Part shown: positions 5,948 through 18,392 of the stretch, in pieces
How the letters are laid out: each line of letters begins with the position of its first letter
Position numbering within the stretch: the first letter of the stretch is position 1
Source of the DNA: Aciduliprofundum boonei T469
GTDB lineage: Archaea > Thermoplasmatota > Thermoplasmata > Thermoplasmatales > Aciduliprofundaceae
NCBI RefSeq assembly: GCF_000025665.1
Contig: NC_013926.1
Location: forward strand, 1,200,001 to 1,232,000
DNA: 32,000 nucleotides
Direction of reading: 5' to 3'
Translations under genes and position numbers: made by a program
The notes under the pieces: model-generated
Told to the model about the DNA's origin: nothing
Databases searched by the model: none
What the model saw: the letters and a program-made list of their open reading frames with translations, nothing else

Positions 5948-6374
5948 GGAGGAACTAGAGAAAGGATTGGCTACCCTTGAAGTGCTCAAAGCTCAAATTT
6001 CAAATTTACAAACTCAAATTGATGCTCTGCAAAGATCCATACAAGAGCATACGAACGCAAAGGAGACCATTGAGGGCTATATGAAAATGGAAAATGATGA
6101 AATCTTAGTGCCCATCGGTGCAGGAGTTATGATCTCTGCAAAAGTGCAAGAGAAGAAAGGTTTGATAACCATAGGCAACGAGCTTTACACAGAATTGCCC
6201 TTAGAGAAAATCTTGGAAAAAATAGAAAAGAGGAAAAAAGATTTAGAAGATTTGCAGTTAAAACTATCCACAGACCTCAAAAGATTGCAGGAAAATTATG
6301 CGGTTTTGAGTGCGAAAGTAGAGCAGGATTATGCTAAATACATAGAGGAGAGGAAGAATGTTCAAGGCCCTTAA
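5940..6374 (+). CDS. pfdA: Prefoldin alpha subunit
   Basis: Coiled coil, beta-hairpin core (ILVPIGAGVMISAKV...LITIGNELYTE), coiled coil; correct size. Position between rplX and ftsY is the conserved archaeal arrangement. GTG 5931 is an alternative start. Confidence 0.85.
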   Translation: MNEEELEKGLATLEVLKAQISNLQTQIDALQRSIQEHTNAKETIEGYMKMENDEILVPIGAGVMISAKVQEKKGLITIGNELYTELPLEKILEKIEKRKKDLEDLQLKLSTDLKRLQENYAVLSAKVEQDYAKYIEERKNVQGP

Positions 6375-7281
6375 AGAAAAATTAGGGTTTATAAAGAAAA
6401 AAGCGGAAAGCATGGATCAAGAGTTTACCACGGGAGTAGGTAAGAAAATAACTGAGGATAAGCTGGAAGATTTTCTATGGGATATAGAAGTGGCATTGAT
6501 GGAGGCAGATGTGGCCGTAGATGTCATTGAAAAAATAAAGAATGACTTGAAAAAAGCTTTGGTTGGGAAGAAGGTAAAGCTCAGAGCAGATGTGGGCAAA
6601 ATTGTAGAAGACACCCTGAAAAAATCAATAAAGGAGATTTTGACCAAAGATTTTGATTTTGATGAATTTATCAGGAATGCTCCAAGACCCACCGTTATAA
6701 TGTTTCTTGGAGTAAACGGTACCGGAAAAACCACGGTTATTGCAAAACTAGCCAAATACCTAAAGGATAAGGGTTATTCGGTAGTTATGGCTGCCGGAGA
6801 CACTTTCAGAGCAGGGGCTATTGAACAAATTTCTATCCATGGAGATAATTTAGGAATTAAGGTGATAAAACACCAGGCAGGGGGAGATCCTGCAGCGGTA
6901 TGTTATGATGCTATTGAACATGCAAAGGCAAAGCACAGGGATTTTGTGCTTATTGACACGGCAGGAAGAATGCAAACCAACCGCAATCTTATGGAAGAGA
7001 TGAAGAAAATAAAGAGGGTTGCCAAACCGCATTTGACTATTTTCGTTGGGGATGCCCTTGCAGGCAACGATGCCATTGAGCAGGCAAAAAAATTTGAAGA
7101 AGCGGTGGGTATAGATGCTGTCATTTTAAATAAAGTTGATGCAGATGCTAAAGGAGGTGCAGCGTTAAGCATCGCATATGAATTAAACAAGCCCATTATA
7201 TTCCTTGGAAATGGACAAAAATACGATGATCTTATGATATTTGATGTGAACTGGTTTTTGCATAGAATATTTGGTGATTGA
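6358..7281 (+). CDS. ftsY: Signal recognition particle receptor FtsY
   Basis: SRP-GTPase NG domain with GVNGTGKTT (G1), DTAGR (G3), NKVDADAKGG (G4). SD GGAGAGGAAG upstream. Confidence 0.93.
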   Translation: MFKALKEKLGFIKKKAESMDQEFTTGVGKKITEDKLEDFLWDIEVALMEADVAVDVIEKIKNDLKKALVGKKVKLRADVGKIVEDTLKKSIKEILTKDFDFDEFIRNAPRPTVIMFLGVNGTGKTTVIAKLAKYLKDKGYSVVMAAGDTFRAGAIEQISIHGDNLGIKVIKHQAGGDPAAVCYDAIEHAKAKHRDFVLIDTAGRMQTNRNLMEEMKKIKRVAKPHLTIFVGDALAGNDAIEQAKKFEEAVGIDAVILNKVDADAKGGAALSIAYELNKPIIFLGNGQKYDDLMIFDVNWFLHRIFGD

Positions 7282-7282
7282 A

Positions 7283-8167
7283 ATGCAAGTTTTTGAGCTT
7301 ATAGGCAACACTCCTACTTTGAGAGTTGAAAATATATGGCTAAAACTTGAATTTATGAACCCAACAGGGAGCCATAAGGATAGAATCGCTTATTATATGA
7401 TAGAGGAGGCAAAAAACAAAGGTTTGAAAAAAGGAAGATATGTTATTGAATACACCTCCGGAAATACGGGTATATCTGTAACTTGGCTCTCAAAATTAAT
7501 GGGCTATAAACCCCTAATATTACTTCCTGAAAACATTGTTGAAGAGAAGAGGGCTCTTATCAAGGCCTTGGGTGGGGAGATAAGAATTGTAAAAGAGGGC
7601 GAAGATGGTCATCTTCTAGCCGAGAAACTTGCAGAAGAGTTAAAAGGTGTATATCTGCATCAAACAGAAAACTTGGCGAATTTCAGAGCCCATTACGAAA
7701 CTACAGCACCAGAATTATTTTCTCAGGTAAAAAATATTGATTGTTTTGTGATGGGCGCAGGTACTGGTGGCACCATATACGGCATTGGAAAATATTTAAA
7801 AGCGAGAAACGAAAAAATAAAGGTTGTACTCTTGGTTCCAAAGGGCTCTCAGCTTCAAGAGGAGTTCTTTGAAAAGAGGGAAAAGGATATGGAACTGCTC
7901 GAGGGTTTCTCTTATCATTCCTACAGCAAACTACTCAAGAAAGCGATAGATGAAAATATAATTGATGAAATTAGAGTAGTAAGCGCAGAAGAGGCTATTA
8001 AAGGCACAAAAATGCTTATGTCTTACGGCATATTAGGGGGATTCACAGCCGGAGCAAATTTTTATCAAGCAAAGAAAATGGAGAAAAATTGTAGAAATAT
8101 AGCCACGATAGTGGCCGATTCCATTATACGCTATCCATCTCGAATGGAACTCATTCAGCAGATTTAG
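7283..8167 (+). CDS. PLP-dependent cysteine synthase / cystathionine beta-synthase family enzyme
   Basis: PLP-lysine motif NPTGSHKDR, Asn loop TSGNTG, phosphate loop GAGTGGT. ATG 7283 is preceded by GGTGAT inside the ftsY end. The track start at 7271 is TTG. Confidence 0.8.
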
Positions 8168-9530
8168 GCAGGTATTTTTCTATGTATTCTCTATCTATCT
8201 TCTTTAAATAGCTCCTTGGGAGTAATGCAAGGAGATTCCAAGCTATGCTCAAAGTATCTTCTATGCTTCTATCTTCATCCCTGCCTTGGGTTATGAATCT
8301 CTCCTCAAAGGCATCTGCAAAATTTAGCAGTATTCTGTCCTCCTCACTTAGAGCTTCTTCTCCCACAACGGCAACGAGGTCTCTCAATCTCAGACCCTCT
8401 GCATAAGCCGCATAGAGCTGATTGGCAACACCGGCATGGTCTTCTCTGGTCCTGCCTTTACCTATTCCCTCTTTCATCAATCTGGACAAGGAAAGAAGAG
8501 GATTGATAGGAGGATAAATACCACGGCGATGCAATGGGCGACTCAACACAATCTGTCCCTCTGTGATATATCCTGTCAAATCTGGAATAGGATGAGTCAT
8601 ATCATCATCGGGCATTGTTAAAATTGGAATTTGGGTAATGCTTCCTTTCTTTCCGATTATTCTTCCTGCTCTTTCGTAGATAGTTGCAAGGTCTGTGTAC
8701 ATATAACCTGGATAGCCTCTTCTACCGGGAACCTCCTCTCTAGCTGCACTAATTTCTCTCAGAGCTTCGCAGTAGTTGGTCATATCGGTCAAAATAACCA
8801 AGACATGCATGTCTTTTGCATAGGCAAGATATTCTGCCACCGTCAAACCCATTCTGGGAATGACTATACGCTCTATAGCAGGATCATTTGCAAGATTCAA
8901 AAACAATACCGTTCTCTCGAGAGCACCTGTTCTTTCAAACTCTTTACGGAAGAAATTTGCTTCTTCTGCAGTTATACCCATGGCAACAAATACCACAGCA
9001 AATTTCTCTCCCTTACCTCTGAGCTTTGCCTGCCTTGCAATCTGTGCTGCAATTTCATTATGAGGCATACCAGAGCCACTGAATATAGGTAATTTTTGGC
9101 CACGAACAAGGGTGTTCATACCATCTATAGTGGATATACCTGTTTGTATGAATTCCCTTGGATATTCTCTAGCCGATGGATTGATTGGATAACCATTTAT
9201 ATCTCTCATTTCCTCAGGTATTATATCAGGCCCTCCATCAATTGGCCTGCCAGTACCATCAAATACACGACCGAGCATTTCTAAAGATACACCTATTTTA
9301 AGGGTCTCTCCTAAAAATTTAACAGTAGTGGATTTCACATCCAATCCCCTAGTACCCTCAAAAACTTGAACAATGGCCATATTCTCCCTTGCTTCAAGCA
9401 CTTGACCAAGGCGCTCTTTACCATCTGGACCACGAATCTTAACTACCTCGCCATAAGCCACATCTTTAGTGTTTTCCACTATGAGCAAAGGACCTTTTAT
9501 TTCCCTAATAGTCTTATACTCAACCTCCAT
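8151..9530 (-). CDS. atpB: A-type ATP synthase subunit B
   Basis: Highly conserved A/V-type B subunit sequence ([15 protein letters not shown]..., [43 protein letters not shown]). Confidence 0.97.
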
Positions 9531-11279
9531 TTACTTCACCTCTCTGATAAGCCTATCTATCTCGCTTTCAATTTTCTCCTCAATCTTTGCAAACTCTTCC
9601 TTGTAAGTTTCATTGGGTATTCTTCCCATGTACGCAAGATCCTCTTTTACACTCAATTTTCTTATTTTATCCATTGGCACACCGCTTTCTACAGCCCTAG
9701 TAATCAAAGAGTGGAACTTAAGAATGAGTTTTAACATCAGATACTGCTTATCAGCTGGGCAGTAGGTATCTACATCATGAAAAGCATTCTGCTGCAAGAA
9801 ATCCTCACGGAGAGAGCGCGCTGTTTCCAGTAATGCCTGCTCTTTGGCAGGTAATGCATCTGGACCAACCAACTGCACAATTTCTTGCAATTCTGCTTCT
9901 CTCTGCAATATACCCATTGCCTCCCTTCTTAGCTCGTACCAATCCTTAGCAACATTTTTAGACCACCAAGAGCTGACGGAATTCAGATAGAGGGAATATG
10001 AGCGAAGCCAGTTTATTGATGGGAAGTGTCTCTTATGCGCCAGCTCTGCATCAAGAGCCCAGAAGACCTTGACGATACGCAGGGTATTCTGTGTAACTGG
10101 CTCACTGAAATCACCGCCGGGAGGAGAAACTGCCCCAACAACAGTCACAGAGCCATATTTCTTTTCAGAACCAGCAACTTCAACATAACCTGCACGCTCA
10201 TAGAATTCGGCAAGACGAGATGCAAGATATGCAGGATAACCTTCCTCACCAGGCATTTCCTCCAATCTTCCCGATATTTCTCTAAGAGCCTCAGCCCAGC
10301 GGGAGGTTGAATCTGCCATTAAAGCAACATGGTAGCCCATATCTCTGAAGTACTCAGCTATTGTGATACCTGTGTAAATAGAAGCTTCTCTCGCAGCCAC
10401 GGGCATATTTGAAGTGTTTGCTATGAGCACCGTCCTATTCATAAGAGGCTCCCCAGTGCGAGGATCTTTAAGTTTAGGGAAATCTTCGAGAACCTCTGTC
10501 ATCTCGTTTCCCCTCTCCCCACATCCAACATAAACCACGATGTCTGCATCACTCCATTTTGCAAGCTGATGCTGCGTAACCGTTTTGCCTGTGCCGAATC
10601 CTCCAGGTATGGCGGCTGTACCACCCTTGGCTATAGGAAAGAATGTGTCAAGCACTCTCTGCCCAGTAACAAGCAATTCCACTGGGTCTAATTTAGATTT
10701 AAATGGCCTCTGTCTCCTCACAGGCCAGCGCTGGTACATTTTTATTTCTGCACTATCTATCTTGGCTATAGGCTCCTCTATTGTGTAATCTCCCTCCTCC
10801 GCAATCCATTCTATCTTTCCCTCTTTTTCAGGAGGGACCATTATCCTATGTTCCACAATAAGTGTCTCTTGAACGGTTCCTAAAATATCTCCTCCTCTCA
10901 CATAATCTCCCACTTTTGCCCTTGGTACGAAATGCCATTTTTTATTTGGATTCAATGGGGGAGCAGTTGCACCCCTTTTTATGAAATCTCCTGTCAATTC
11001 TTTAATCTCCGGTAAAGGTCTTTGAATACCATCGTAAATCTGAGAAATTATACCTGGACCAAGCATCACAGATAAAGGTGCTCCAGTTCTTTCAACAGGT
11101 TCTCCTGGCTTTATACCCGAAGTTTCCTCGTAGACCTGTATGGTTGCAGTATCCCCATACAGACCTATAATTTCACCAATCAAACCTTCTTCACCAACCT
11201 TAACCACTTCGTACATCTCGCTTCCTTTCATTCCATCAGCAACGACCACTGGTCCTGCTACCCTAATTATTCTTCCCAT
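9531..11279 (-). CDS. atpA: A-type ATP synthase catalytic subunit A
   Basis: P-loop [19 protein letters not shown], and a non-homologous insert region typical of A subunits. No intein (normal length). ATG 11277-11279 is preceded by GAGGTGA. The track start at 11288 is a GTG overlapping the atpF stop. Confidence 0.97.
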
Positions 11280-11284
11280 ATTTT

Positions 11285-11602
11285 TCACCTCTTTAGTATG
11301 TCTATACCTATAGCTCTTTTAACCAAACTCCTCATAGGATCTTCAACCTCAACTTCCTTCTTATCAGGTATCTCCAAAATTATTGGATATATGCCTTTCT
11401 CCTTTTTCCACTCATTAATATAATCCCTTATCTCCCGAGCCATCCTTCTGGATATTATTACTATGGCTACATCTTTCATATACTTAATCTCATTTAGAAT
11501 CTCCTTCATTTTCCAAGGATCCTCAGCCTCATAAGAATCCTTAATACCTGCAAGCTGGAAACCGTTAATCATGTCCCTGTCTCCCACAACTACGATTTTC
11601 AT
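11285..11602 (-). CDS. atpF: A-type ATP synthase subunit F
   Basis: [20 protein letters not shown]... is a typical subunit F of about 100 aa. ATGA overlap with the atpC stop. Confidence 0.9.
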
Positions 11603-12699
11603 GCCACATCACCAACCAAGAGTCCACGAATCCTATCCTTAGATATTCCTTCCATATAGCCCTTAACTATGCTCTTTAGGTTCCTTAATTCAAAATCTTT
11701 AGCCACAAGGAACATGAGCAATGGCCCAGCCGTTGTCGCAAATGTCAACGAAAGCTCGTTTACCTTCCTCAGAAGCATCCGATCTAGCTCTAACTCGATT
11801 ACGAATGGATCTTCCACATCCCTAAGAAATGCGTAGCTGGTTCCTTCCAGATGAGATAATGCCTCATCCAAAGTCCTAGCATTTGCCATGCTCTTTACTT
11901 TCCAATCACTTAACTCGTATCCGCCTTCCAAAAGCAGATTACTTATATCTTCAATTTCAGCTTTCTTCGCTCTAACAATGGTTTTTATATTGAATATATC
12001 AACAAACATAGAGAGCACAATATTAACAGGCTCTGCGGAGTTCTCTTCAAGCATTCTCTTAGAATCTATCAAATTCTTTAAAACCAATCTATCAAGAGCG
12101 ATATCCACTTTATATAAGTCAGAGGATTCGTTCCATATCTTTATTACCTCGGCAAAGGGTGTTGCATCCAAGGCACTGACAGCATCTTCCATACTTGTGG
12201 CTTCTACCATATGTTGAATTATGAGTTTTGTTAAGAATCTACCTGGATATACCTCCTCATATATCCGAGCCTTTGGCACCTTGGCATATTTTGCTCTTAA
12301 AATCCTCTTGACCATATTTGCATCATACTTGAGCATATACGCCTCTGCGAAGCTCTTACCATCATCAGGAAGCATTTCCATTACTCTTTGCATCATTGCA
12401 AGCATACTTCTTTCTAACTCTATATCATATTTTTTCAGATCTTCTACGCTATATCCTTCTTTTTCAATGTCAGATACAACTTCAGTCAAGTTTGTGTAAT
12501 TTAATAATCTCTCGATATTATCTTTTTCAGTGTATTTGGCACCTATGGCAAATATGGTGGCGTTGGGACCCATATAGGCTCCAATATTGAGCATCTTTCT
12601 AAAGAATCCCATAAGAAAAGCTATAACCACGAAGATTGCGAGGAATGATATCGTAATTGCCAAGATTATAGCGGTGCTTTCAAGCATACTCTTCACCAA
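11599..12699 (-). CDS. atpC: A-type ATP synthase subunit C (V-type d homologue)
   Basis: Operon position between E and F, size of about 366 aa, helical composition. N-terminal hydrophobic segment (residues ~9-32). Confidence 0.85.
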   Translation of the reverse strand: MVKSMLESTAIILAITISFLAIFVVIAFLMGFFRKMLNIGAYMGPNATIFAIGAKYTEKDNIERLLNYTNLTEVVSDIEKEGYSVEDLKKYDIELERSMLAMMQRVMEMLPDDGKSFAEAYMLKYDANMVKRILRAKYAKVPKARIYEEVYPGRFLTKLIIQHMVEATSMEDAVSALDATPFAEVIKIWNESSDLYKVDIALDRLVLKNLIDSKRMLEENSAEPVNIVLSMFVDIFNIKTIVRAKKAEIEDISNLLLEGGYELSDWKVKSMANARTLDEALSHLEGTSYAFLRDVEDPFVIELELDRMLLRKVNELSLTFATTAGPLLMFLVAKDFELRNLKSIVKGYMEGISKDRIRGLLVGDVA

Positions 12700-13264
12700 A
12701 TAACTTCACATAAATCCTTTTTCTCATATCACCCATATTCCTCTCTACAAAGGCCTTCACGGTGTAATCGACCTTCTTTAGAGAGTCGCTGCTTATTGCA
12801 AGAATTCCCCCATATTCTAGTTCACCTGCCATGACCTTCAAATTTAATTCCATATCATCCGCAATTCTCTTTACCATCTCTACATCCTCTTGCATGGCGA
12901 TGACTTCAAAGTTATTACCAAGAACATTCTTAGCATCTTCGAGAGATTCCCTAATATATTTCTCATAATTCACATAATCTTTAAAGCTAATCTGAACTTG
13001 GTTTATGATTCTCTCTATTACTTTTTCCCTTGCATTCATCAACATCTTCTTTCCATCTAAATGGGCCTTGGAAATATGCATCTGTTTTATGGTCTCTGCC
13101 TCTCTCTTACCAGAACTTTCCATTTTTTCTCTTTCTTTATCCCACTTGCTCTCTTCAATATTCCTGATTCTCTCTATTTCTCTATCTGCTTTATCCCAGT
13201 ACTCCTTAATCTTCCACTGCACATCCTCTTCGATTCTCTTTATTATTCTGTCTATGGCATCCAT
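12680..13264 (-). CDS. atpE: A-type ATP synthase subunit E (peripheral stalk)
   Basis: Charged N-terminal coiled coil followed by a globular C-terminal domain. 194 aa. Operon position immediately after atpK. Confidence 0.88.
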   Translation of the reverse strand: MDAIDRIIKRIEEDVQWKIKEYWDKADREIERIRNIEESKWDKEREKMESSGKREAETIKQMHISKAHLDGKKMLMNAREKVIERIINQVQISFKDYVNYEKYIRESLEDAKNVLGNNFEVIAMQEDVEMVKRIADDMELNLKVMAGELEYGGILAISSDSLKKVDYTVKAFVERNMGDMRKRIYVKLFGEEYA

Positions 13265-15085
13265 TTAGAACACCCCTATAGCCATAAGTAGAAGGATTGC
13301 TACGAGCAAGCCAAAGATAGCAAAGGTCTCACTCATCACGGATAACATCATACTCTTTCCAAAGCTCTCAGAGCGTCTAGTGAAGGCGCCTATACCCATC
13401 GCTGCCGTTATACCTTGGCCAATACCGCTCAATCCCGCAAATCCAATTGCCAAACCAGCACCTATTGCGCCGATTCCAACGAATAAGGCCATTGATTTTG
13501 GAATCTGCAATCCACCACCAAGAAGGCCAACTGCATAGAGAATTATTATGGATACAATCAAAGCATAGATACTCTGTGTCTCTGGAAGCACTGAGAATAT
13601 GATGGACTTTGAGAACGCTGATGGCTTTTCCACGGAAGCAGCAGCACCACTTCCCGCTGCAATACCCTGCCCTATGGCAGTCATACCACTAACACCTATG
13701 GCCAAGCCAGCGCCTATTGCAGCCAAGCCTACACCTATAGGAAAAGCAAGTGGTTTTGAACCAAATAAACCTGCACCATTAACGATGAATATAGCTACAA
13801 GCAATCCGTAAATAACTTGAGTTTCTGGCATTATTGCAAATACCATTATTTTACCAAAGGAAGCTTTCTCACGCATACTTGCATAGACGCTACTTCCCGC
13901 AGCTATGCCGAGTCCTATACCACTCAAACCAGCAAATCCAACAGCTAGGCCTGCACCTATTGCAGCCAAGCCAACAAATAGGGCTGCATTTCCACTCATA
14001 AATCCAGAGCCGCTTAGCAAACCTGTGGCGCTTAGGACCACTATGGCTATAATCAAAGCAGTTATACTTGGAGTTTCAGCTATAACGGAAAATATCATGC
14101 CCTTGGTGAATGCCTTTGGATTCTCAGCTGTTGCCGCACAGGAGCTAGATGCAGCAATACCTTGGCCTATGGCTGTCAAGCCGCTCACACCCATGGCCAA
14201 GCCAGCACCTATTGCAGCCAAGCCCACACCGAGAGAATAGTGTTTTACCCCACCCCCGAACATTCCAGAGCCATATAGAATTAAAATGGCGATAAGCAAG
14301 CCATAGATTGCCTGAGTTTCAGGAAGAATGGAGAACACAACAGCTTTTCCGTAAGAAATTCTATCATGCTGTGTAGTGCCAATGCCAGTGCCAGCAACGA
14401 TTCCCTGTCCTATAGCACTCAAACCTGCAAGACCCACGGAGATGCCAGCACCTATTGCAGCCAGGCCTATGGATATTGGCACATTCTCAATGTGCCCAGA
14501 GAAAGCACCTATGCCCATCATAATTATAATTGCTATCAAAAATCCATAAATTGCCTGGGTCTGAGGAAATGCCTGGAATATAAGTATCCTTCCAAACTTG
14601 CTCTTAGGATCGCTTCCAATGGCAGCAGCACCGCTTGCTCCGGTGATACCCACACCAACACCAGAACCTATGGCCGATAGACCAACAGCAAGGCCTGCAC
14701 CTATGAGGGCAAGATAACCACCCATTGGGCCTTCTCCCACAACGAATTTGTAAACATAAGTTGTATTGGCATTTTCTATGACTTTTAACTGATAAGTTCC
14801 ACTTTGCTCGAGTGTGACCGTGAATCTTGAACCTGTACCTGTTAAATTCTTACCTCCAAAACTCAAGATCCATGTTACACTTGAACTCCATTTGAATGTA
14901 TAATTCTTCCCTATTTCAAATGCTCCAGATGAATTTACCTCACTAAGCGGTTTCTCAACAGTCTTTCCATTAACCTCATAAATTACAGTTGGCTCAACAC
15001 CTTGAGCTGCCGCATGTGGCATAGAAACCACAAATAGCAGCAAGAGCGCACTTAAGAGCACCATTAGCGGCACTAATTTTTTCAT
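13265..15085 (-). CDS. atpK: A-type ATP synthase proteolipid (subunit K/c): signal peptide + extracytoplasmic domain + six fused hairpins
   Basis: Six copies of the c-subunit pattern GLAAIGAGLA-G-(A/S)G(L/M)(S/T)(A/G)IGQGI...loop...(P/S/A)(E/Q)T(Q/P/F)xI(Y/F/T). GGAGGTGA SD lies 8 nt upstream. The ATG overlaps the atpI TAA by 1 nt. Confidence 0.93.
   Translation of the reverse strand: MKKLVPLMVLLSALLLLFVVSMPHAAAQGVEPTVIYEVNGKTVEKPLSEVNSSGAFEIGKNYTFKWSSSVTWILSFGGKNLTGTGSRFTVTLEQSGTYQLKVIENANTTYVYKFVVGEGPMGGYLALIGAGLAVGLSAIGSGVGVGITGASGAAAIGSDPKSKFGRILIFQAFPQTQAIYGFLIAIIIMMGIGAFSGHIENVPISIGLAAIGAGISVGLAGLSAIGQGIVAGTGIGTTQHDRISYGKAVVFSILPETQAIYGLLIAILILYGSGMFGGGVKHYSLGVGLAAIGAGLAMGVSGLTAIGQGIAASSSCAATAENPKAFTKGMIFSVIAETPSITALIIAIVVLSATGLLSGSGFMSGNAALFVGLAAIGAGLAVGFAGLSGIGLGIAAGSSVYASMREKASFGKIMVFAIMPETQVIYGLLVAIFIVNGAGLFGSKPLAFPIGVGLAAIGAGLAIGVSGMTAIGQGIAAGSGAAASVEKPSAFSKSIIFSVLPETQSIYALIVSIIILYAVGLLGGGLQIPKSMALFVGIGAIGAGLAIGFAGLSGIGQGITAAMGIGAFTRRSESFGKSMMLSVMSETFAIFGLLVAILLLMAIGVF
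13268..14731 (-). repeat. Intragenic tandem repeat: six c-subunit hairpin modules (243/252-nt period)
   Basis: The plus-strand motif cc(a/t)gc(a/g)cctat(t)gc... (encoding AIGAG) recurs, with its acctat core at 13460, 13712, 13955, 14207, 14450 and 14699. Spacings are 252, 243, 252, 243 and 249 nt. Odd and even modules form two sequence classes. Confidence 0.9.
14732..15004 (-). other. Predicted extracytoplasmic beta-rich domain of AtpK (residues ~28-118)
   Basis: QGVEPTVIYEVNGKTVEKPLSEVNSSGAFEIGKNYTFKWSSSVTWILSFGGKNLTGTGSRFTVTLEQSGTYQLKVIENANTTYVYKFVV. Alternating hydrophobic/polar beta pattern, with four N-x-S/T sequons (NSS, NYT, NLT, NTT). Confidence 0.6.
15005..15085 (-). other. Predicted Sec signal peptide of AtpK
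   Basis: MKKLVPLMVLLSALLLLFVVSMPHAAA|QG has a basic n-region, a hydrophobic h-region and an A-A-A cleavage-type c-region. Confidence 0.65.
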
Positions 15086-17223
15086 TATTCATTCACCTCC
15101 AACCTGCTATGTTTCCTAACTTCTCTAAACGGCACAAACTTTACACCATCTCCCTCATAGAACTTTGAGAAGAACTCTACATACTGCAAACGCAGAGAGT
15201 GCACAAATGAGCCCAATGCTTGAAGCATTGAGTTCCCTATATGCCCTATAATCAAGAAGAGAAGTATGAATAACCATATGGCTGCTGTTATGCTTACCAC
15301 TCCCACTATACCAAATACGAGGAGGAGCAGTATTATGCCCTTCTTTATGGGATCCTTCTTTCTCATCCAAAGAAGAGCAAGAGCAACACCTGCAAGGAGC
15401 ACTGGAAGACAGCAAACCATGCCTGTGGCTCCTGCAGTCATAGTCCTTATTATCCCGGCAAGGATGTTTATCGTAAGAGCCAAACCGGATGTAGCTAAAT
15501 CTAGCGCAAGTAAACGGGAATAAGAGAGCCAATCCCCAATCATACCTGTTATATCAAAGAAAAATAGTCCGTTTATAGAGGCTTTTTTATCCACAAGTTT
15601 ACCCATTACTCCTGGGAGGAATAAGAATAATCCAATTACTGTGAATATCCATGCTATTGTAACTGCCGTTCCAGACATCTGCCACCATCCGAAATAATAG
15701 CCTATGAGCGCACCGCCTGCAGGGTATAGTATGAGCCAAGACACTTCGCCCTGCAAAAATTCAGAGTAATTTTTATCTCTAAGGTGATGGAACGCGCCAA
15801 GAGCCATACCCAAGCTCAGCTGAAATACACCGATCATAAGAGAGATCTTTAGCAGAGTTATAGGGTCCTGCATTGGATCCAAGATAGGAGTGTAGTGAAT
15901 TAAAGGTGTAAGTGGATTCGATTCATTTAAAGGTCCAAATATACCTCCTTGAATTAAACCAAAAACTACAGCCGATAACCCGGAGACAAATAATATAGAT
16001 CCTAGTGTTCTATTTGTCCAGTTGTATTTGCCCAGTGGCTTCCATAGGATATATCCCAGTACAGCCATTATCATACCATAACCAGCATCTCCCAGAGTAA
16101 GGCCAAAGTAGATGATGAACAAAGGCGCTATTATCACAGTCGGATCTATATGCCCGTACTTTGGCGTGGAGTACATATCCACAAATGCCTGAAAAGGCCT
16201 AAACATCCTTGGATTGTTATATTTTACGGGGACATCTCCTCCCTTCGCCTCTTTCCATCTTATCAATGCAAGGCCTCGCGCTGCTTTTTCGATAACTTTC
16301 CTTGCACTTTCAAAATCCACCTTTGGTATGTAGCCCCTGATTACTGTAGTATAAAATGTCTTGCCAAATTTTGAATGAATTTCCTCCTTTATTTTCTCAT
16401 TATAAAGATCATCCTTTAAAACGGAAAGATGAGGATAAACTTCCTTTCTCAAAATCCTCAATTCTGTCAGAATTTTTTCCTTCTCTTTGGACAGCTTTTT
16501 AGATTTTAATTCCATATCTTTCAATACCTTATCGGGTTTACCCTTCCACTCTTTTAACTCAAATTCTGAAAATCCTGCAAATCTCAAAGCAGATTCGAGT
16601 TCCTTCTTATCCTTCATATGCGAAGCCACTACAATAATGTAATTGACTTCCTTTTTCTTTCCCTCAGTTACACTCCACAAAGCTATTTTACCTTCGGATT
16701 CTAATTTTTTCAGATGGTCTAAATTTTTTGCAGTTCCCGCAGCGATATACGCATAAGGTCCTTCTCCCAAGTACGAAACATCAAAAGGTAATGCCTTTAA
16801 CTTCTCCACCTGCCTCCTTTGAATTTTTATTCTCTCAATCTCAGTATTTATTTCTTCCCATTTTGAGTATAAATCTAAAATTCTTGGTTCTAAACTCTCC
16901 AAGGTTCTCTCTGCATCTTTCATTATCTCCTCTCTTTCTCTATGCTTTGCAGGATACTTCTCTGGAGGCTCAGTTTTGATTGATGCAAGCATTCCATTTT
17001 TCTTTATCTTAGAGATATTGAGAATCTCCATTAGTTTACCAATTCTAAATTCATAATCCACTATTGTGGTAGCTATATCAGATGGATTTGCATTTTCTAA
17101 ATTTTCAATGTTATGGGTGCTTATATGCATAAAGCCCCTTCTTTGCATCGCATCTAAAACATCGTATTTAACAGAATCATGAAGAAGCACTTCTACTTCC
17201 ACCATCTTGGATGGAAAAAGCAT
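15085..17223 (-). CDS. atpI: A-type ATP synthase subunit I (stator a-subunit)
   Basis: Cytoplasmic N-terminal half with coiled coils plus a C-terminal multi-TM half containing the essential-Arg motif (DWLSYSRLLALDLATSGLA). ATG 17221-17223 is preceded by GGGTGA. The track start at 17232 is a GTG overlapping the atpH stop. Confidence 0.93.
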   Translation of the reverse strand: MLFPSKMVEVEVLLHDSVKYDVLDAMQRRGFMHISTHNIENLENANPSDIATTIVDYEFRIGKLMEILNISKIKKNGMLASIKTEPPEKYPAKHREREEIMKDAERTLESLEPRILDLYSKWEEINTEIERIKIQRRQVEKLKALPFDVSYLGEGPYAYIAAGTAKNLDHLKKLESEGKIALWSVTEGKKKEVNYIIVVASHMKDKKELESALRFAGFSEFELKEWKGKPDKVLKDMELKSKKLSKEKEKILTELRILRKEVYPHLSVLKDDLYNEKIKEEIHSKFGKTFYTTVIRGYIPKVDFESARKVIEKAARGLALIRWKEAKGGDVPVKYNNPRMFRPFQAFVDMYSTPKYGHIDPTVIIAPLFIIYFGLTLGDAGYGMIMAVLGYILWKPLGKYNWTNRTLGSILFVSGLSAVVFGLIQGGIFGPLNESNPLTPLIHYTPILDPMQDPITLLKISLMIGVFQLSLGMALGAFHHLRDKNYSEFLQGEVSWLILYPAGGALIGYYFGWWQMSGTAVTIAWIFTVIGLFLFLPGVMGKLVDKKASINGLFFFDITGMIGDWLSYSRLLALDLATSGLALTINILAGIIRTMTAGATGMVCCLPVLLAGVALALLWMRKKDPIKKGIILLLLVFGIVGVVSITAAIWLFILLFLIIGHIGNSMLQALGSFVHSLRLQYVEFFSKFYEGDGVKFVPFREVRKHSRLEVNE

Positions 17224-17228
17224 GGTTT

Positions 17229-17549
17229 TCACCCAAATATCTCTTTAAGTACCTCTACAGCTACTTCGTTAATCCTATTTTCATCGATGCTCTCAATTTC
17301 TTTCACTCTTTCCCTGTATTCCTCTAATATTTTCTCTGCCTCTCTTTTTCCCTCTTCATCAGCTTCTTCCTTCCATCTTTCTATGGTTTCCAACACTTCT
17401 TCTCTCTCTTTTTCAATAGTGGCTCTAATTTCTTTTTTTGCATTTTCAATCTTCTCCTTACTTTCCTTCTCTGCTTTCTCTATGCGTGATAGTGCACTGT
17501 TTTCAGTCTCACGAATCCGTTTAAGGTCCCTCTCGATCATAAAACTCAT
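17229..17549 (-). CDS. atpH: A-type ATP synthase subunit H (peripheral stalk)
   Basis: 106-aa charged helical protein, MSFMIERDLKRIRETENSALSRIEKAEKESKEKIENAKKEI...INEVAVEVLKEIFG. First gene of the atp operon. The 221-aa track ORF extends upstream across the intergenic region and into pxpA on the other strand, so the extension is spurious. Confidence 0.8.
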   Translation of the reverse strand: MSFMIERDLKRIRETENSALSRIEKAEKESKEKIENAKKEIRATIEKEREEVLETIERWKEEADEEGKREAEKILEEYRERVKEIESIDENRINEVAVEVLKEIFG

Positions 17550-17624
17550 CGGGAGATGACATTTACATTTATAATAATTTTGGATGGCCAAAAATTTAAG
17601 TTCAAAGTAGAGTATTAAGATTCG
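17550..17624. promoter_or_regulatory. Divergent promoter region, atp operon (minus strand) / pxpABC (plus strand)
   Basis: Minus-strand TTATTATAAA (plus-strand coordinates ~17568-17577) lies about 19-28 nt upstream of the atpH ATG. Plus-strand AAAATTTAAG (~17591-17600) lies about 25-34 nt upstream of the pxpA ATG. Neither gene has an SD, which fits leaderless first genes. Confidence 0.45.
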
Positions 17625-18392
17625 ATGAAAGTTGATTTGAATGCGGACCTTGGAGAGAGTTTCAGCATCTACAAAATTGGAAATGATACGGAGATTATGA
17701 ATTATATCACCTCTGCAAATATTGCCTGTGGATGGCATGGTGGAGACCCCATTGTTATGAGAGAGACAGTTAAGTGGGCAAAGGAGAAGAATGTGGCAAT
17801 TGGTGCTCATCCAAGCTACCCTGATAGATTGGGGTTTGGAAGAAGGTACATGAAAATAAGTTCTGATGAGGCTAAAAACTATGTTATATATCAAATAGGT
17901 GCATTGTATGGATTTGTTAAAGCAGAATCACTGAAAATACAGCATGTCAAACCACATGGAGCTTTGTACAACGCGATGGTTAGAGATGAAGATCTTGCAA
18001 GGGGAATTATTGAGGGAATTTTAGAATTTGATAAAGAACTAATATTTGTAGGCCCTTCTAACTCGAAAATTATGGATATAGCAGAGGATATGGGCTTAAG
18101 AGTTGCACATGAAGTATTTGCTGACAGAGCTTACAATTCAGATGGAACCTTAGTGCCGCGAGGCAGGCCTAGGGCTGTCATAGAGGATAAAGAGGAAATT
18201 GCAAGAAGAGTCATCTCAATCGTCAAGGATGGGGGAGTAAAAGCAATTGATGGGAAATGGGTTGAGTTAAGGGCAGATACAATTTGCATCCACGGTGATA
18301 ATCCAAATGCGGTTGAAATAGTCAAGTATTTAAGAAGGGTATTGGATAAAGAGTGCATAGATGTGGTCTCTATGGGAGAGTTTATAAAATGA
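17625..18392 (+). CDS. pxpA: 5-oxoprolinase subunit A (LamB/YcsF family)
   Basis: [13 protein letters not shown]...[12 protein letters not shown]...[10 protein letters not shown] are LamB/YcsF hallmark motifs. Confidence 0.9.

What the first reader, a model, noticed from the sequence alone, without database searches (positions are those of the whole stretch)
13268..14731. ATP synthase rotor proteolipid is one polypeptide with six fused c-subunit hairpins (a 2-hairpin unit triplicated)
Residues ~119-606 of AtpK contain six consecutive helix-loop-helix c-subunit modules, or 12 TM helices. The ion-site positions fall at residues 175, 256, 337, 421, 502 and 586, spaced 81, 81, 84, 81 and 84 aa. 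At DNA level the AIGAG-encoding motif recurs with alternating 252/243-nt spacing. Odd modules (1, 3, 5: ..(D/N/K)P(K/S)..F.K..IFSV..) and even modules (2, 4, 6: ..(S/Y)(F/Y)GK...) form two classes. That pattern implies a 4-TM unit, like the Pyrococcus 16-kDa c subunit, that was triplicated. Most archaeal c subunits have one hairpin. The exceptions I know of have 2 (Pyrococcus, Methanothermobacter), 3 (Methanocaldococcus jannaschii) and 13 (Methanopyrus kandleri) hairpins; I do not know of a 6-hairpin form. A fused hexamer forces the ring to contain a multiple of 6 hairpins (12, 18 or 24). That fixes the ion/ATP ratio genetically.
Basis: partly seen in the sequence, partly recalled or inferred. 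Interest (0 to 1): 0.72.

Follow-up and report, generated by a model that had tools for sequence, protein, structure and literature searches.

The report
Six-hairpin ATP synthase rotor with ectodomain
The rotor subunit of the Aciduliprofundum boonei ATP synthase really is one 606-residue chain of six fused c-subunit hairpins, but the first hairpin lacks the ion-binding glutamate and the chain also starts with a signal peptide and an external PKD-like domain; this architecture is common in sequence databases but absent from the papers I could search.

Summary
ORF 13265-15085 (-) is atpK of Aciduliprofundum boonei T469 (100% identical to Aboo_1266). It sits in an atpH-I-K-E-C-F-A-B operon and holds exactly six ATP-synt_C hairpins (12 helices). 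The repeats are old, with 26-48% identity at third codon positions, and the gene recurs in two finished genomes and many MAGs. It is not an assembly artefact.

- Residue 175 is Gln, not Glu. The pattern Q-E-E-E-E-E holds in 111 of 112 six-hairpin homologues. The site between hairpin 6 and hairpin 1 (the seam) lacks all its ligands.
- Site 4 is degenerate in the Aciduliprofundum clade. The other four sites carry the full Q/E/T/Q/Y (Na+-type) motif.
- Residues 1-118 are a signal peptide plus a PKD-like beta-sandwich predicted to lie outside the cell. This domain is fused to 2-, 3-, 4- and 6-hairpin c subunits in Thermoplasmatota.

Six-hairpin c subunits are widespread, including in cultured Methanomicrobiales. 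Relatives have 2, 3, 4, 12 and 13 hairpins, among other counts. "A 2-hairpin unit triplicated" is not supported outside this clade.

The most likely ring is two copies, giving 12 hairpins and 10 carboxylates. This stoichiometry is inferred, not shown.

The parts
13265..15085 (-). atpK: rotor subunit c/K of the A1AO ATP synthase, 606 aa precursor (60.4 kDa)
   Evidence: ORF. Pfam ATP-synt_C E = 1.8e-87. NCBIfam V-type ATP synthase subunit K models. 100% identical to A. boonei T469 ADD09074.1/WP_008083817.1. Masses.
15093..15100 (-). Shine-Dalgarno-like GGAGGTGA upstream of the atpK ATG. The atpI TAA stop overlaps the ATG by one base.
   Evidence: Sequence of the junction printed. Supports the ATG at 15085 as the start, so the N-terminal extension is translated.
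15008..15085 (-). Predicted signal peptide, residues 1-26 (MKK, hydrophobic core, AAA then QG)
   Evidence: AF2 helix 4-20, then a low-confidence stretch at 22-29. An AxA-Q motif recurs at the same place in the homologues. Cleavage is inferred, not shown.
14732..15007 (-). PKD-like beta-sandwich domain, residues 27-118, predicted to lie outside the cell. It holds all four N-X-S/T sequons of the protein.
   Evidence: AF2 of the domain alone gives pLDDT 91 and is all-beta. Foldseek finds CD4 D1 and PKD domains (2y72, 1b4r, 1l0q) with prob about 1 but E about 0.02. Pfam PKD is only 13.2 bits in the query. PKD/PKD_4 is significant in 29-30 of 46 aligned homologues, and W72 is invariant.
14489..14731 (-). 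Hairpin 1 (residues 119-199), the N-terminal cap. It has Val in place of the helix-1 Gln and Gln175 in place of the carboxylate.
   Evidence: It aligns to hairpin 1 of E. hirae NtpK (P-Q175-T-Q against P-G63-T64-Q65).
14561..14563 (-). Codon of Gln175, at the ion-site position of hairpin 1
   Evidence: Invariant in 46 aligned homologues.
14246..14488 (-). Hairpin 2 (residues 200-280). Q227 and E256, with T176/Q177/Y180 of hairpin 1, form a complete site 2.
   Evidence: Q227 aligns to NtpK Q110, E256 to E139.
14003..14245 (-). Hairpin 3 (residues 281-361). E337 forms site 3. Its helix 2 reads ETPSIT instead of ETQAIY.
13751..14002 (-). Hairpin 4 (residues 362-445). E421 is kept but the helix-1 Gln is Leu, giving a degenerate site 4 (L/E/T/P/T).
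   Evidence: 23 of 62 PKD-fused six-hairpin proteins (the Aciduliprofundum clade) have L/P/T; the rest have Q/Q/Y.
13508..13750 (-). Hairpin 5 (residues 446-526). Q473 and E502 form a complete site 5.
13268..13507 (-). Hairpin 6 (residues 527-606), the C-terminal cap. E586 forms site 6. Its helix 2 reads SETFAIF, so F588 and F591 replace the Gln and Tyr it would give to the seam site.
15085..17232 (-). atpI (stator subunit a/I), immediately upstream
   Evidence: NCBIfam V-type ATP synthase subunit I, E = 1.8e-136.
8151..13264 (-). atpE (12680-13264), atpC (11599-12699), atpF (11285-11602), atpA (9531-11288) and atpB (8151-9530), downstream in the same operon
   Evidence: NCBIfam hits.

Best explanation
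This is the rotor (proteolipid) subunit of the A-type ATP synthase of Aciduliprofundum boonei.

The precursor has three parts:
- a signal peptide (residues 1-26);
- a small PKD-like beta-sandwich that stays outside the cell, joined by about three residues to the first helix, which is an inner-ring helix;
- six covalently linked c hairpins.

Chains pack head to tail into the ring, so hairpin 6 of one chain lies next to hairpin 1 of the next.

As in Enterococcus hirae NtpK, each ion site is built from two hairpins. Hairpin k supplies the Gln of helix 1 and the Glu of helix 2. The preceding hairpin supplies the Thr, Gln and Tyr of its helix 2. On this model:
- the seam site (hairpin 6 to hairpin 1) has lost every ligand (V, Q, F, F) and carries no ion;
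- sites 2, 3, 5 and 6 are complete Na+-type sites;
- site 4 keeps only the Glu and Thr.

Each chain therefore carries five carboxylates on six hairpins.

The most likely ring is two chains: 12 hairpins, 10 carboxylates, about 3.3 ions per ATP, and two external domains rotating with the ring over its outer mouth.

Shown here: the gene, six hairpins, the Q-E-E-E-E-E pattern, the architecture and its conservation, and the operon position.

Inferred: signal-peptide cleavage, outside location of the domain, the site model, the copy number of two, and the coupling ion.
For: Identity and reality of the gene:
- establish identity and operon position.
- The repeats are ancient. Third-codon-position identity is 26-48% for every hairpin pair. 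DNA repeat identity is 62-85%.
- The same architecture occurs in two finished Aciduliprofundum genomes (606 and 603 aa) and in DHVE2 MAGs at 68-97% identity.

Structure:
- AF2 gives 12 helices plus a beta-sandwich.
- The best solved matches are NtpK and the V-ATPase c subunits.

Topology:
- There are 15 Lys/Arg in the hairpin turns and 3 in the inter-hairpin linkers.
- All four N-glycosylation sequons lie in the N-domain.

Site model:
- The alignment to NtpK maps T176/Q177/Y180, Q227 and E256 onto T64/Q65/Y68, Q110 and E139. PMC2359735 names T64, Q110 and E139 as Na+ ligands. That Q65 is a ligand too, and that Y68 bonds E139, is my own recollection of the 2BL2 structure.
- I compared 44 distinct multi-hairpin signatures. 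A modified site k goes with an altered Gln/Tyr in hairpin k-1 in 31 of 35 cases. For unmodified sites the figure is 5 of 269. There is no such link with hairpin k or k+1.

Seam:
- V/Q in hairpin 1 and F/F in the last hairpin occur in all 62 PKD-fused proteins and in 42-49 of the 50 other six-hairpin proteins.
- The same caps occur in 2-, 3-, 4- and 12-hairpin relatives.

Ring of 12:
- A close relative (AtpA 85% identical) has PKD plus 4 hairpins in the same operon slot.
- Single chains of 12 hairpins with the same caps exist. So 4x3 = 6x2 = 12x1.
- Solved single-hairpin A/V-type K subunits are deposited as 12 chains per entry (132 chains in 11 entries).
Against: - The copy number per ring is not measured. 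NtpK is deposited as 10 chains of 2 hairpins, i.e. 20 hairpins (50 chains in 5 entries). Rings larger than 12 therefore exist, and 3 x 6 = 18 is possible.
- Relatives with 5, 7, 8 and 9 hairpins that look complete do not divide 12, so ring size probably varies in this family.
- I could not obtain model coordinates, a multimer prediction or the AFDB comparison. The curvature of the six-hairpin arc is therefore unknown.
- The 23 proteins that share the site-4 changes form one clade, so that pattern is a single evolutionary event.
- The statistic is not corrected for shared ancestry.
- Only 32 kb of the genome is visible, so a second c gene elsewhere cannot be excluded.
- The PKD assignment in the query itself is weak (Pfam 13.2 bits against a cut-off of 23.5; Foldseek E about 0.02).
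- Coupling-ion prediction from motifs has failed before. Methanosarcina mazei carries the Na+ motif yet uses H+ (PMC3017947).
Confidence: 0.7

Rival explanations
1. Same protein, but three copies per ring: 18 hairpins, 15 carboxylates, 5 ions per ATP and three external domains. This would be a high-ratio synthase suited to very low driving force.
For: NtpK is deposited as ten chains of two hairpins each, i.e. a 20-hairpin ring (50 chains in 5 entries). The eukaryotic V-ATPase c-rings that also match are, from my own knowledge, about that size too, so 18 hairpins is geometrically ordinary. The PNAS 2022 paper stresses life at low driving force in anaerobic archaea.
Against: A close relative has four hairpins, and single-chain relatives with the same caps have 12. 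Both fit a 12-hairpin ring, not 18. No 18-hairpin single chain was seen among 300 homologues.
Confidence: 0.22
2. One reading: the gene arose by triplication of a 4-TM (two-hairpin) unit like the Pyrococcus 16-kDa c subunit.
For: In the Aciduliprofundum clade, hairpins of the same parity are more alike (h3-h5 65%, h4-h6 54-57%, h2-h4 54-57%). Linker lengths alternate, giving the 252/243-nt spacing.
Against: Other six-hairpin lineages show no parity signal: 62.9% against 64.0%, and 60.9% against 62.2%. There hairpins 3-5 are about 80% identical to each other, but only about 58% to their positional counterparts in other lineages. That points to concerted evolution or repeated internal expansion. 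Hairpin 1 does not group with hairpins 3 and 5. The family follows cap + n internal hairpins + cap, with n = 0, 1, 2, 4 or 10. A multiplied one-site V-type unit gives QEQEQEQE (P0068), not QEEEEE.
Confidence: 0.15
3. The precursor is processed. Either the PKD-like domain is removed together with the signal peptide, or the chain is cut between hairpins. The working rotor would then be an ordinary proteolipid without an ectodomain.
For: Nothing in the sequence forbids it. Methanomicrobiales six-hairpin proteins work without any N-terminal domain. The N-domain evolves about four times faster than the hairpins (dN 0.25-0.32 against 0.06-0.10).
Against: The domain is kept in 62 six-hairpin proteins and in 2-, 3- and 4-hairpin relatives across Thermoplasmatota, always directly abutting helix 1. 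Its glycosylation sequons are conserved. The inter-hairpin linkers are short, Gly-rich and not conserved as a cleavage motif.
Confidence: 0.12
4. Assembly artefact, frameshifted fusion or pseudogene: the six copies would come from a collapsed or expanded repeat.
Against: The copies are only 62-85% identical in DNA and are saturated at third codon positions. Identical or near-identical 602-609-aa proteins occur in two complete genomes and in many independent assemblies. The hairpin region has dN of only 0.06-0.16 against orthologues. dS is about 2.2-2.4 where it could be estimated and otherwise too saturated to compute.
Confidence: 0.01

Closest known systems
Triplicated proteolipid of Methanocaldococcus jannaschii (three hairpins)
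   Same: Both are A-type c subunits with more than two hairpins fused in one chain (PMC2359735). The NCBIfam 220-residue subunit K model NF004913 matches residues 125-351 at E = 1.3e-136. From my own recollection of Ruppert et al. 1999, the first hairpin has Gln instead of the carboxylate, which is the n hairpins / n-1 sites rule seen here. A three-hairpin relative with signature VQTQY QETQY QETFF was found (P0164).
   Different: This protein has six hairpins rather than three, one extra degenerate site, and a signal peptide plus an external PKD-like domain.
Methanopyrus kandleri AtpK (13 fused hairpins, proposed monomeric rotor)
   Same: Both are single chains with many fused hairpins in the atpK slot. 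Methanopyrus proteins were retrieved at 46-49% identity. The literature is cited.
   Different: The Methanopyrus type keeps the carboxylate and full motif in all 13 hairpins and has no modified caps. It can close a ring alone. The six-hairpin chain must oligomerise and has a dead seam site.
Enterococcus hirae NtpK and the V-type 16-kDa proteolipid (two hairpins, one site)
   Same: NtpK is the best solved match by sequence and by fold. Hairpins 1-2 align residue by residue to NtpK. The first hairpin lacks the carboxylate but donates Thr/Gln/Tyr to the site of the second.
   Different: Four further live hairpins are inserted between the two caps. The ratio is 5 sites per 6 hairpins instead of 1 per 2.
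Acetobacterium woodii hybrid F-type c ring (nine one-hairpin c plus one V-type c)
   Same: It is a rotor ring with a minority of positions that carry no ion, and it still synthesises ATP (PMC9171764). The chain 4bem_J was retrieved.
   Different: There the gap comes from a second gene product in a mixed ring. Here it is built into every chain at the seam.
Luminal cap of eukaryotic V-ATPase c-rings (Voa1/Ac45-ATP6AP1 and ATP6AP2); analogy only, from my own knowledge
   Same: Both place folded domains on the non-cytoplasmic face of the rotor ring, where they rotate with it.
   Different: In eukaryotes these are separate proteins with helices inside the ring. Here the domain is fused to the N-terminus of the c subunit itself and is PKD-like. 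No homology is implied, and none was tested.

Membership tests
ATP synthase subunit c/K (Pfam PF00137, A/V-type proteolipid) | Significant match to the ATP-synt_C profile | tested here: met
   288 bits against a cut-off of 24, with six stretches at E <= 0.01. NCBIfam subunit K equivalogs score above their cut-offs.
ATP synthase subunit c/K (Pfam PF00137, A/V-type proteolipid) | Helical hairpin with a conserved carboxylate in the middle of the second helix | tested here: met
   E256, E337, E421, E502 and E586 are present. Hairpin 1 has Q175 instead. AF2 gives 12 helices.
ATP synthase subunit c/K (Pfam PF00137, A/V-type proteolipid) | Encoded between atpI and atpE in an A-type ATPase operon | tested here: met
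   The operon is H-I-K-E-C-F-A-B in the window. The slot is the same in L006, L009, L010, L013, L014 and L015.
ATP synthase subunit c/K (Pfam PF00137, A/V-type proteolipid) | Assembles into a ring that rotates against subunit a and carries the coupling ion | not testable with these tools
   Needs biochemistry or cryo-EM.
Multi-hairpin fused archaeal c subunits (M. jannaschii and M. kandleri type) | More than two hairpins in one uninterrupted reading frame | tested here: met
   Six hairpins in one ORF. Conserved in 112 homologues.
Multi-hairpin fused archaeal c subunits (M. jannaschii and M. kandleri type) | The mature protein stays uncleaved between hairpins | not testable with these tools
   Expected masses are given.
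V-type 16-kDa proteolipid (two hairpins, one carboxylate) | Exactly two hairpins (four helices) per chain | tested here: not met
   There are six hairpins.
V-type 16-kDa proteolipid (two hairpins, one carboxylate) | The first hairpin lacks the carboxylate and donates ligands to the site of the next hairpin | tested here: met
   Alignment to NtpK. Coupling statistic.
PKD domain (PF00801 / PF18911) | Profile match above the gathering score | tested here: not met
   The query scores 13.2 bits against 23.5, E = 0.09. By contrast, 29-30 of 46 aligned homologues match significantly (best E = 2.4e-17), and the PKD Trp (W72) is invariant in the alignment.
PKD domain (PF00801 / PF18911) | Ig-like beta-sandwich fold similar to solved PKD domains | tested here: inconclusive
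   The AF2 model has pLDDT 91 and is all-beta. Foldseek finds PKD domains (2y72, 4tn9, 1b4r, 1l0q) with prob 0.99-1.0, but E is 0.02-0.05 and TM-score 0.4-0.5. CD4 D1 ranks first.
Na+-binding c-subunit site (Gln in helix 1; Glu-Thr/Ser, Gln and Tyr in helix 2) | The full ligand set is present at a site | tested here: met
   Sites 2, 3, 5 and 6 are complete. Site 4 has Glu and Thr only. Site 1 has no carboxylate.
Na+-binding c-subunit site (Gln in helix 1; Glu-Thr/Ser, Gln and Tyr in helix 2) | Na+ dependence of ATPase activity, or Na+ protection from DCCD | not testable with these tools
   Motif-based prediction is known to fail for Methanosarcina mazei (PMC3017947).

The most novel reading that the evidence does not exclude
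Thermoplasmatota, including cultivable A. boonei, may build rotary ATP synthases whose rotor carries covalently attached, probably glycosylated, Ig-like ectodomains that spin with the ring on the outside of the cell.

The ring would be assembled from chains that follow a general rule: cap + n live hairpins + cap, with one deliberately dead seam site per chain. On a common 12-hairpin ring, hairpin number per chain (2, 3, 4, 6, 12) would then act as a genetic gear-shift, setting 6, 8, 9, 10 or 11 ions per turn.

Together with the N-terminal membrane helix on subunit C, this would be a prokaryotic counterpart of the filled and capped c-ring of eukaryotic V-ATPases.
Probability: 0.3. Interest if true: 0.8.

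Novelty: new variant of a known kind. Interest (0 to 1): 0.64.

Why it matters
The number of ion sites per rotor turn sets the ion/ATP ratio. That ratio fixes the lowest driving force at which a cell can make ATP, or the steepest gradient it can pump against.

Reviews and recent primary papers still list archaeal c subunits with 1, 2, 3 or 13 hairpins. This gene belongs to a much richer series. I found 2, 3, 4, 5, 6, 7, 8, 9, 12 and 13 hairpins, and an unrelated 15-hairpin form. Within the family that shares these cap motifs, each chain usually has one dead site at its seam. The Methanopyrus-type 13-hairpin chains are the main exception and keep every site.

The series offers natural experiments on how rotors tolerate gaps and mixed sites.

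A folded external domain fused to a rotating subunit is, as far as I could find, undescribed for any prokaryotic rotary ATPase. A. boonei is cultivable, so the ring size, the ectodomain and the coupling ion can be tested directly by cryo-EM and biochemistry.

Tried and rejected
- **dN/dS.** dS is saturated against all four orthologous loci, so only dN could be compared.
- **AtpC comparators.** The search for AtpC homologues reached only close relatives, 362-363 aa. The PDB sequence search with AtpC found nothing meaningful. I could therefore not compare with organisms that have single-hairpin c.
- **Short contigs.** The contigs of a three-hairpin (P0164) and a two-hairpin (P0180) representative were too short to show their operons.
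- **Literature.** Nine full-text searches were run. They covered six hairpins, Aciduliprofundum plus ATPase, PKD plus subunit K, and Methanomicrobiales proteolipid. None found a paper on six-hairpin or PKD-fused c subunits. Subscription journals are not covered, so this is absence in the held library only.
- **Internal start at Met121.** Rejected. This Met is Leu in most relatives, and a strong ribosome-binding site precedes the ATG at 15085.
- **Closed ring from one chain.** I considered it and think it very unlikely. It would be smaller than any ring listed in the literature I read (8-15 protomers). It would also give 1.7 ions per ATP.
Full report
**What is there.** The finding lies in ORF 13265-15085 on the minus strand (606 aa).
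- The ORF sits between atpI (15085-17232) and atpE, atpC, atpF, atpA and atpB. All were confirmed with NCBIfam. A likely atpH lies upstream.
- The protein is 100% identical to Aboo_1266 (ADD09074.1 / WP_008083817.1) of Aciduliprofundum boonei T469, a finished 1.49-Mb genome.
- The atpI stop overlaps the atpK ATG by one base. A GGAGGTGA ribosome-binding site lies 7 nt upstream. The whole 606-residue frame, N-terminus included, is therefore the gene.

**Checking the observation.** All lines of evidence agree on six hairpins.
- Pfam ATP-synt_C matches at E = 1.8e-87, with six stretches at E <= 0.01.
- A hairpin HMM built from the six modules finds exactly six domains, at 13265-14731. It finds none elsewhere in the six-frame translation of the window.
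- AlphaFold2 on an alignment of 46 homologues (pLDDT 84.9, pTM 0.80) gives 12 long helices between residues 121 and 602.
- The DNA repeat spacing is 252, 243, 252, 243 nt.

The copies are old. DNA identity is 62-85%. Third-codon-position identity is 26-48% for every pair. The same 602-609-aa architecture occurs in a second finished genome (Aciduliprofundum sp. MAR08-339, 603 aa) and in DHVE2/Thermoplasmata MAGs at 56-97% identity. An assembly artefact is excluded as far as sequence data allow.

- Residue 175 is Gln.
- It is invariant in 46 aligned homologues.
- The pattern Q-E-E-E-E-E holds in 111 of 112 six-hairpin proteins.

**A model of the sites.** Hairpins 1-2 align residue by residue with Enterococcus hirae NtpK.
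- P174-Q175-T176-Q177...Y180 falls on P62-G63-T64-Q65...Y68.
- Q227 falls on Q110, and E256 on E139.
- PMC2359735 names E139, Q110 and T64 as Na+ ligands of NtpK. That Q65 is also a ligand, and that Y68 bonds E139, is my own recollection of the 2BL2 structure.
- Site k therefore uses the helix-1 Gln and helix-2 Glu of hairpin k, plus the helix-2 Thr/Gln/Tyr of hairpin k-1.

Read this way:

| Site | Residues in A. boonei | State |
|---|---|---|
| 1 (seam, hairpin 6 to hairpin 1) | V / Q / T / F / F | No carboxylate; dead in essentially all six-hairpin proteins |
| 2, 3, 5, 6 | Q / E / T / Q / Y | Complete |
| 4 | L / E / T / P / T | Degenerate in the 23 proteins of the Aciduliprofundum clade; complete elsewhere |

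The model has independent support. I compared 44 distinct multi-hairpin signatures. A modified site k is accompanied by an altered Gln/Tyr in hairpin k-1 in 31 of 35 cases. For unmodified sites this happens in 5 of 269 cases (Fisher p = 8e-33). Hairpin k and hairpin k+1 show no such link. Shared ancestry is not corrected for.

The same coupling holds across the chain ends: the last hairpin reads ET(F/Y)..(F/L) and the first reads (V/A/T)Q. This is sequence-level evidence that the last hairpin packs against a first hairpin, as in a head-to-tail ring.

- Residues 1-26 look like a signal peptide: MKK, a hydrophobic helix, then AAA followed by QG. The AxA-Q motif recurs in relatives.
- Residues 27-118 fold as a confident beta-sandwich (pLDDT 91). 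Foldseek matches are weak but consistent: CD4 D1 and PKD domains of collagenase G, polycystin-1 and an archaeal S-layer protein (E about 0.02, TM-score 0.4-0.5).
- Pfam PKD is below threshold in the query (13.2 bits). PKD/PKD_4 is significant in 29-30 of the 46 aligned homologues, and the PKD Trp (W72) is invariant.
- Topology places the domain outside. There are 15 Lys/Arg in the hairpin turns against 3 in the linkers. All four N-X-S/T sequons of the protein lie in this domain, and three are conserved.
- The domain joins helix 1 through about three residues. The N-terminal helix of a c hairpin lines the inside of the ring (PMC3639240). The domain should therefore sit over the outer mouth of the ring and rotate with it.
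- It evolves faster than the hairpins (dN 0.25-0.32 against 0.06-0.10). dS for the domain was too saturated to estimate in three of four comparisons; the fourth, with the most distant orthologue (dN 0.85 there), gave dN/dS 0.46.
- Its function is unknown. My best guesses are a cap or plug of the ring, or help in assembly. I hold these with low confidence.

**How common it is.** I scored 154 sequences (153 retrieved proteins plus the query). These include cluster members fetched, so the sample is redundant.
- 112 have six hairpins.
- 62 of those carry the N-terminal domain. They come from Thermoplasmatota, and several are annotated "PKD domain-containing protein".
- 50 lack the domain. These include annotated subunit K of cultured Methanofollis, Methanocalculus and Methanolinea, and of Undinarchaeales.
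- Others have 4, 5, 7, 8, 9, 10, 11, 12 or 13 hairpins. Some of the odd numbers are fragments.

A search of 1.84 billion cluster representatives adds more forms:
- PKD plus 2 hairpins (P0170, P0173);
- PKD plus 3 hairpins (P0163);
- PKD plus 4 hairpins (P0154-P0159);
- an unrelated 15-hairpin protein (P0161).

The 2-, 3-, 4-, 6- and 12-hairpin forms that I looked up all occupy the atpI-atpE slot of A-type operons. In the family that shares these cap motifs the usual form is a dead N-terminal cap, n live internal hairpins and a C-terminal cap. The Methanopyrus 13-hairpin type keeps every site.

| Group | Same-parity identity | Different-parity identity |
|---|---|---|
| Aciduliprofundum clade | 51.6% | 45.7% |
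| Other PKD-fused Thermoplasmatota | 62.9% | 64.0% |
| Methanomicrobiales type | 60.9% | 62.2% |

(All.)
- In the other lineages, internal hairpins 3-5 are about 80% identical to each other. They are only about 58% identical to the same positions in other lineages. Hairpins 1 and 6 are clear positional orthologues.
- This fits concerted evolution or repeated gain and loss of internal hairpins between fixed caps. It fits less well with one triplication of a 4-TM unit.
- A multiplied one-site V-type unit looks different: QEQEQEQE in P0068.

**Ring size and gearing (inferred).** A homo-oligomeric ring must hold a multiple of six hairpins and five carboxylates per chain.

Evidence for two copies (12 hairpins, 10 carboxylates, 3.3 ions per ATP):
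- A relative with AtpA 85% identical has PKD plus 4 hairpins.
- Single chains of 12 hairpins carry the same caps.
- Solved single-hairpin A/V-type K subunits are deposited as 12 chains per entry.

Evidence that keeps three copies (18 hairpins, 15 sites, 5 ions per ATP) open:
- NtpK forms a 20-hairpin ring (10 chains per entry).
- Apparently complete 5-, 7-, 8- and 9-hairpin relatives do not divide 12.

The complete Q/E/T/Q/Y motif suggests Na+ at four sites. Such predictions have failed before.

**Comparison with what is known.**
- The closest described relatives are the three-hairpin M. jannaschii proteolipid and the 13-hairpin M. kandleri AtpK.
- The closest solved structure is NtpK.
- No solved chain has more than two hairpins plus one helix.
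- The papers I could search list 1, 2, 3 or 13 hairpins as late as 2022. None mentions a six-hairpin or PKD-fused c subunit.
- The proteins themselves have been in public databases since the A. boonei genome was deposited.

**Verdict.** This is a real and well-conserved variant of the fused archaeal rotor subunit, not a new kind of machine. Two features would surprise a specialist: a built-in dead seam site, and an external Ig-like domain on a rotating subunit. Its count of ion sites, its evolutionary model and its claim of uniqueness need correction.

Noticed in passing
window 11599-12699 (-), atpC; also L006 6207-7298, L009 6042-7160, L010 7070-8260, L013 3120-4280, L014 1924-2994, L015 6860-8041: Subunit C (the rotor socket, homologue of V-ATPase d) begins with a strongly hydrophobic helix of about 20-25 residues followed by Arg/Lys (Kyte-Doolittle 2.6-3.3). 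This holds in all seven operons examined, whether the c subunit has 2, 3, 4, 6 or 12 hairpins. The AhaC profile TIGR02923 matches only from residue 44. The helix could sit inside the c-ring. I did not compare with archaea that have single-hairpin c subunits.
   Followed up: partly
window 14732-15007 (-), residues N51, N61, N80, N107 of AtpK: All four N-X-S/T sequons of the 606-aa protein lie in the N-terminal domain. Three recur at the same positions in the clade. This suggests an N-glycosylated external domain.
   Followed up: partly
window 6358-8167 (+), next to atpB (8151-9530, -): No atpD (central stalk subunit D) follows atpB. A cysteine synthase-like gene and ftsY on the opposite strand come next, so atpD must be encoded elsewhere.
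   Followed up: no
window 17229-17894 (-): The ORF upstream of atpI has no family match. Only its last 106 residues or so (from MSFMIERDLKR...), which are Glu/Lys-rich and helical-looking, resemble subunit H. The mechanical ORF start is probably too far upstream.
   Followed up: partly
proteins P0161 (1139 aa), P0168 (631 aa), P0227, P0203, P0226: A different family of fused c subunits has the signature IEALY in every hairpin. It includes a 15-hairpin chain and an 8-hairpin chain. Three-hairpin forms carry long N-terminal extensions of 158-302 aa.
   Followed up: no
L006 4311-5621 (P0112) and relatives P0117, P0118, P0154-P0159: A lineage close to Aciduliprofundum (AtpA 85% identical) has the same signal peptide and beta-domain fused to four hairpins instead of six (VQTQY QETQY QETQY QETFF). 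The operon is otherwise the same.
   Followed up: yes
six-hairpin proteins outside the Aciduliprofundum clade (e.g. P0049-P0060, P0096-P0119): Internal hairpins 3-5 are about 80% identical within a protein but about 58% identical to the same positions in other lineages. This points to gene conversion or repeated expansion among the internal repeats.
   Followed up: partly
12-hairpin proteins P0026, P0027, P0031 (L009 2545-5445): These single-chain 12-hairpin proteins mix complete sites with several Leu-type sites (QETHF LETQY). This is the same kind of degenerate site as site 4 of A. boonei, and the first one also falls at hairpin 4.
   Followed up: no
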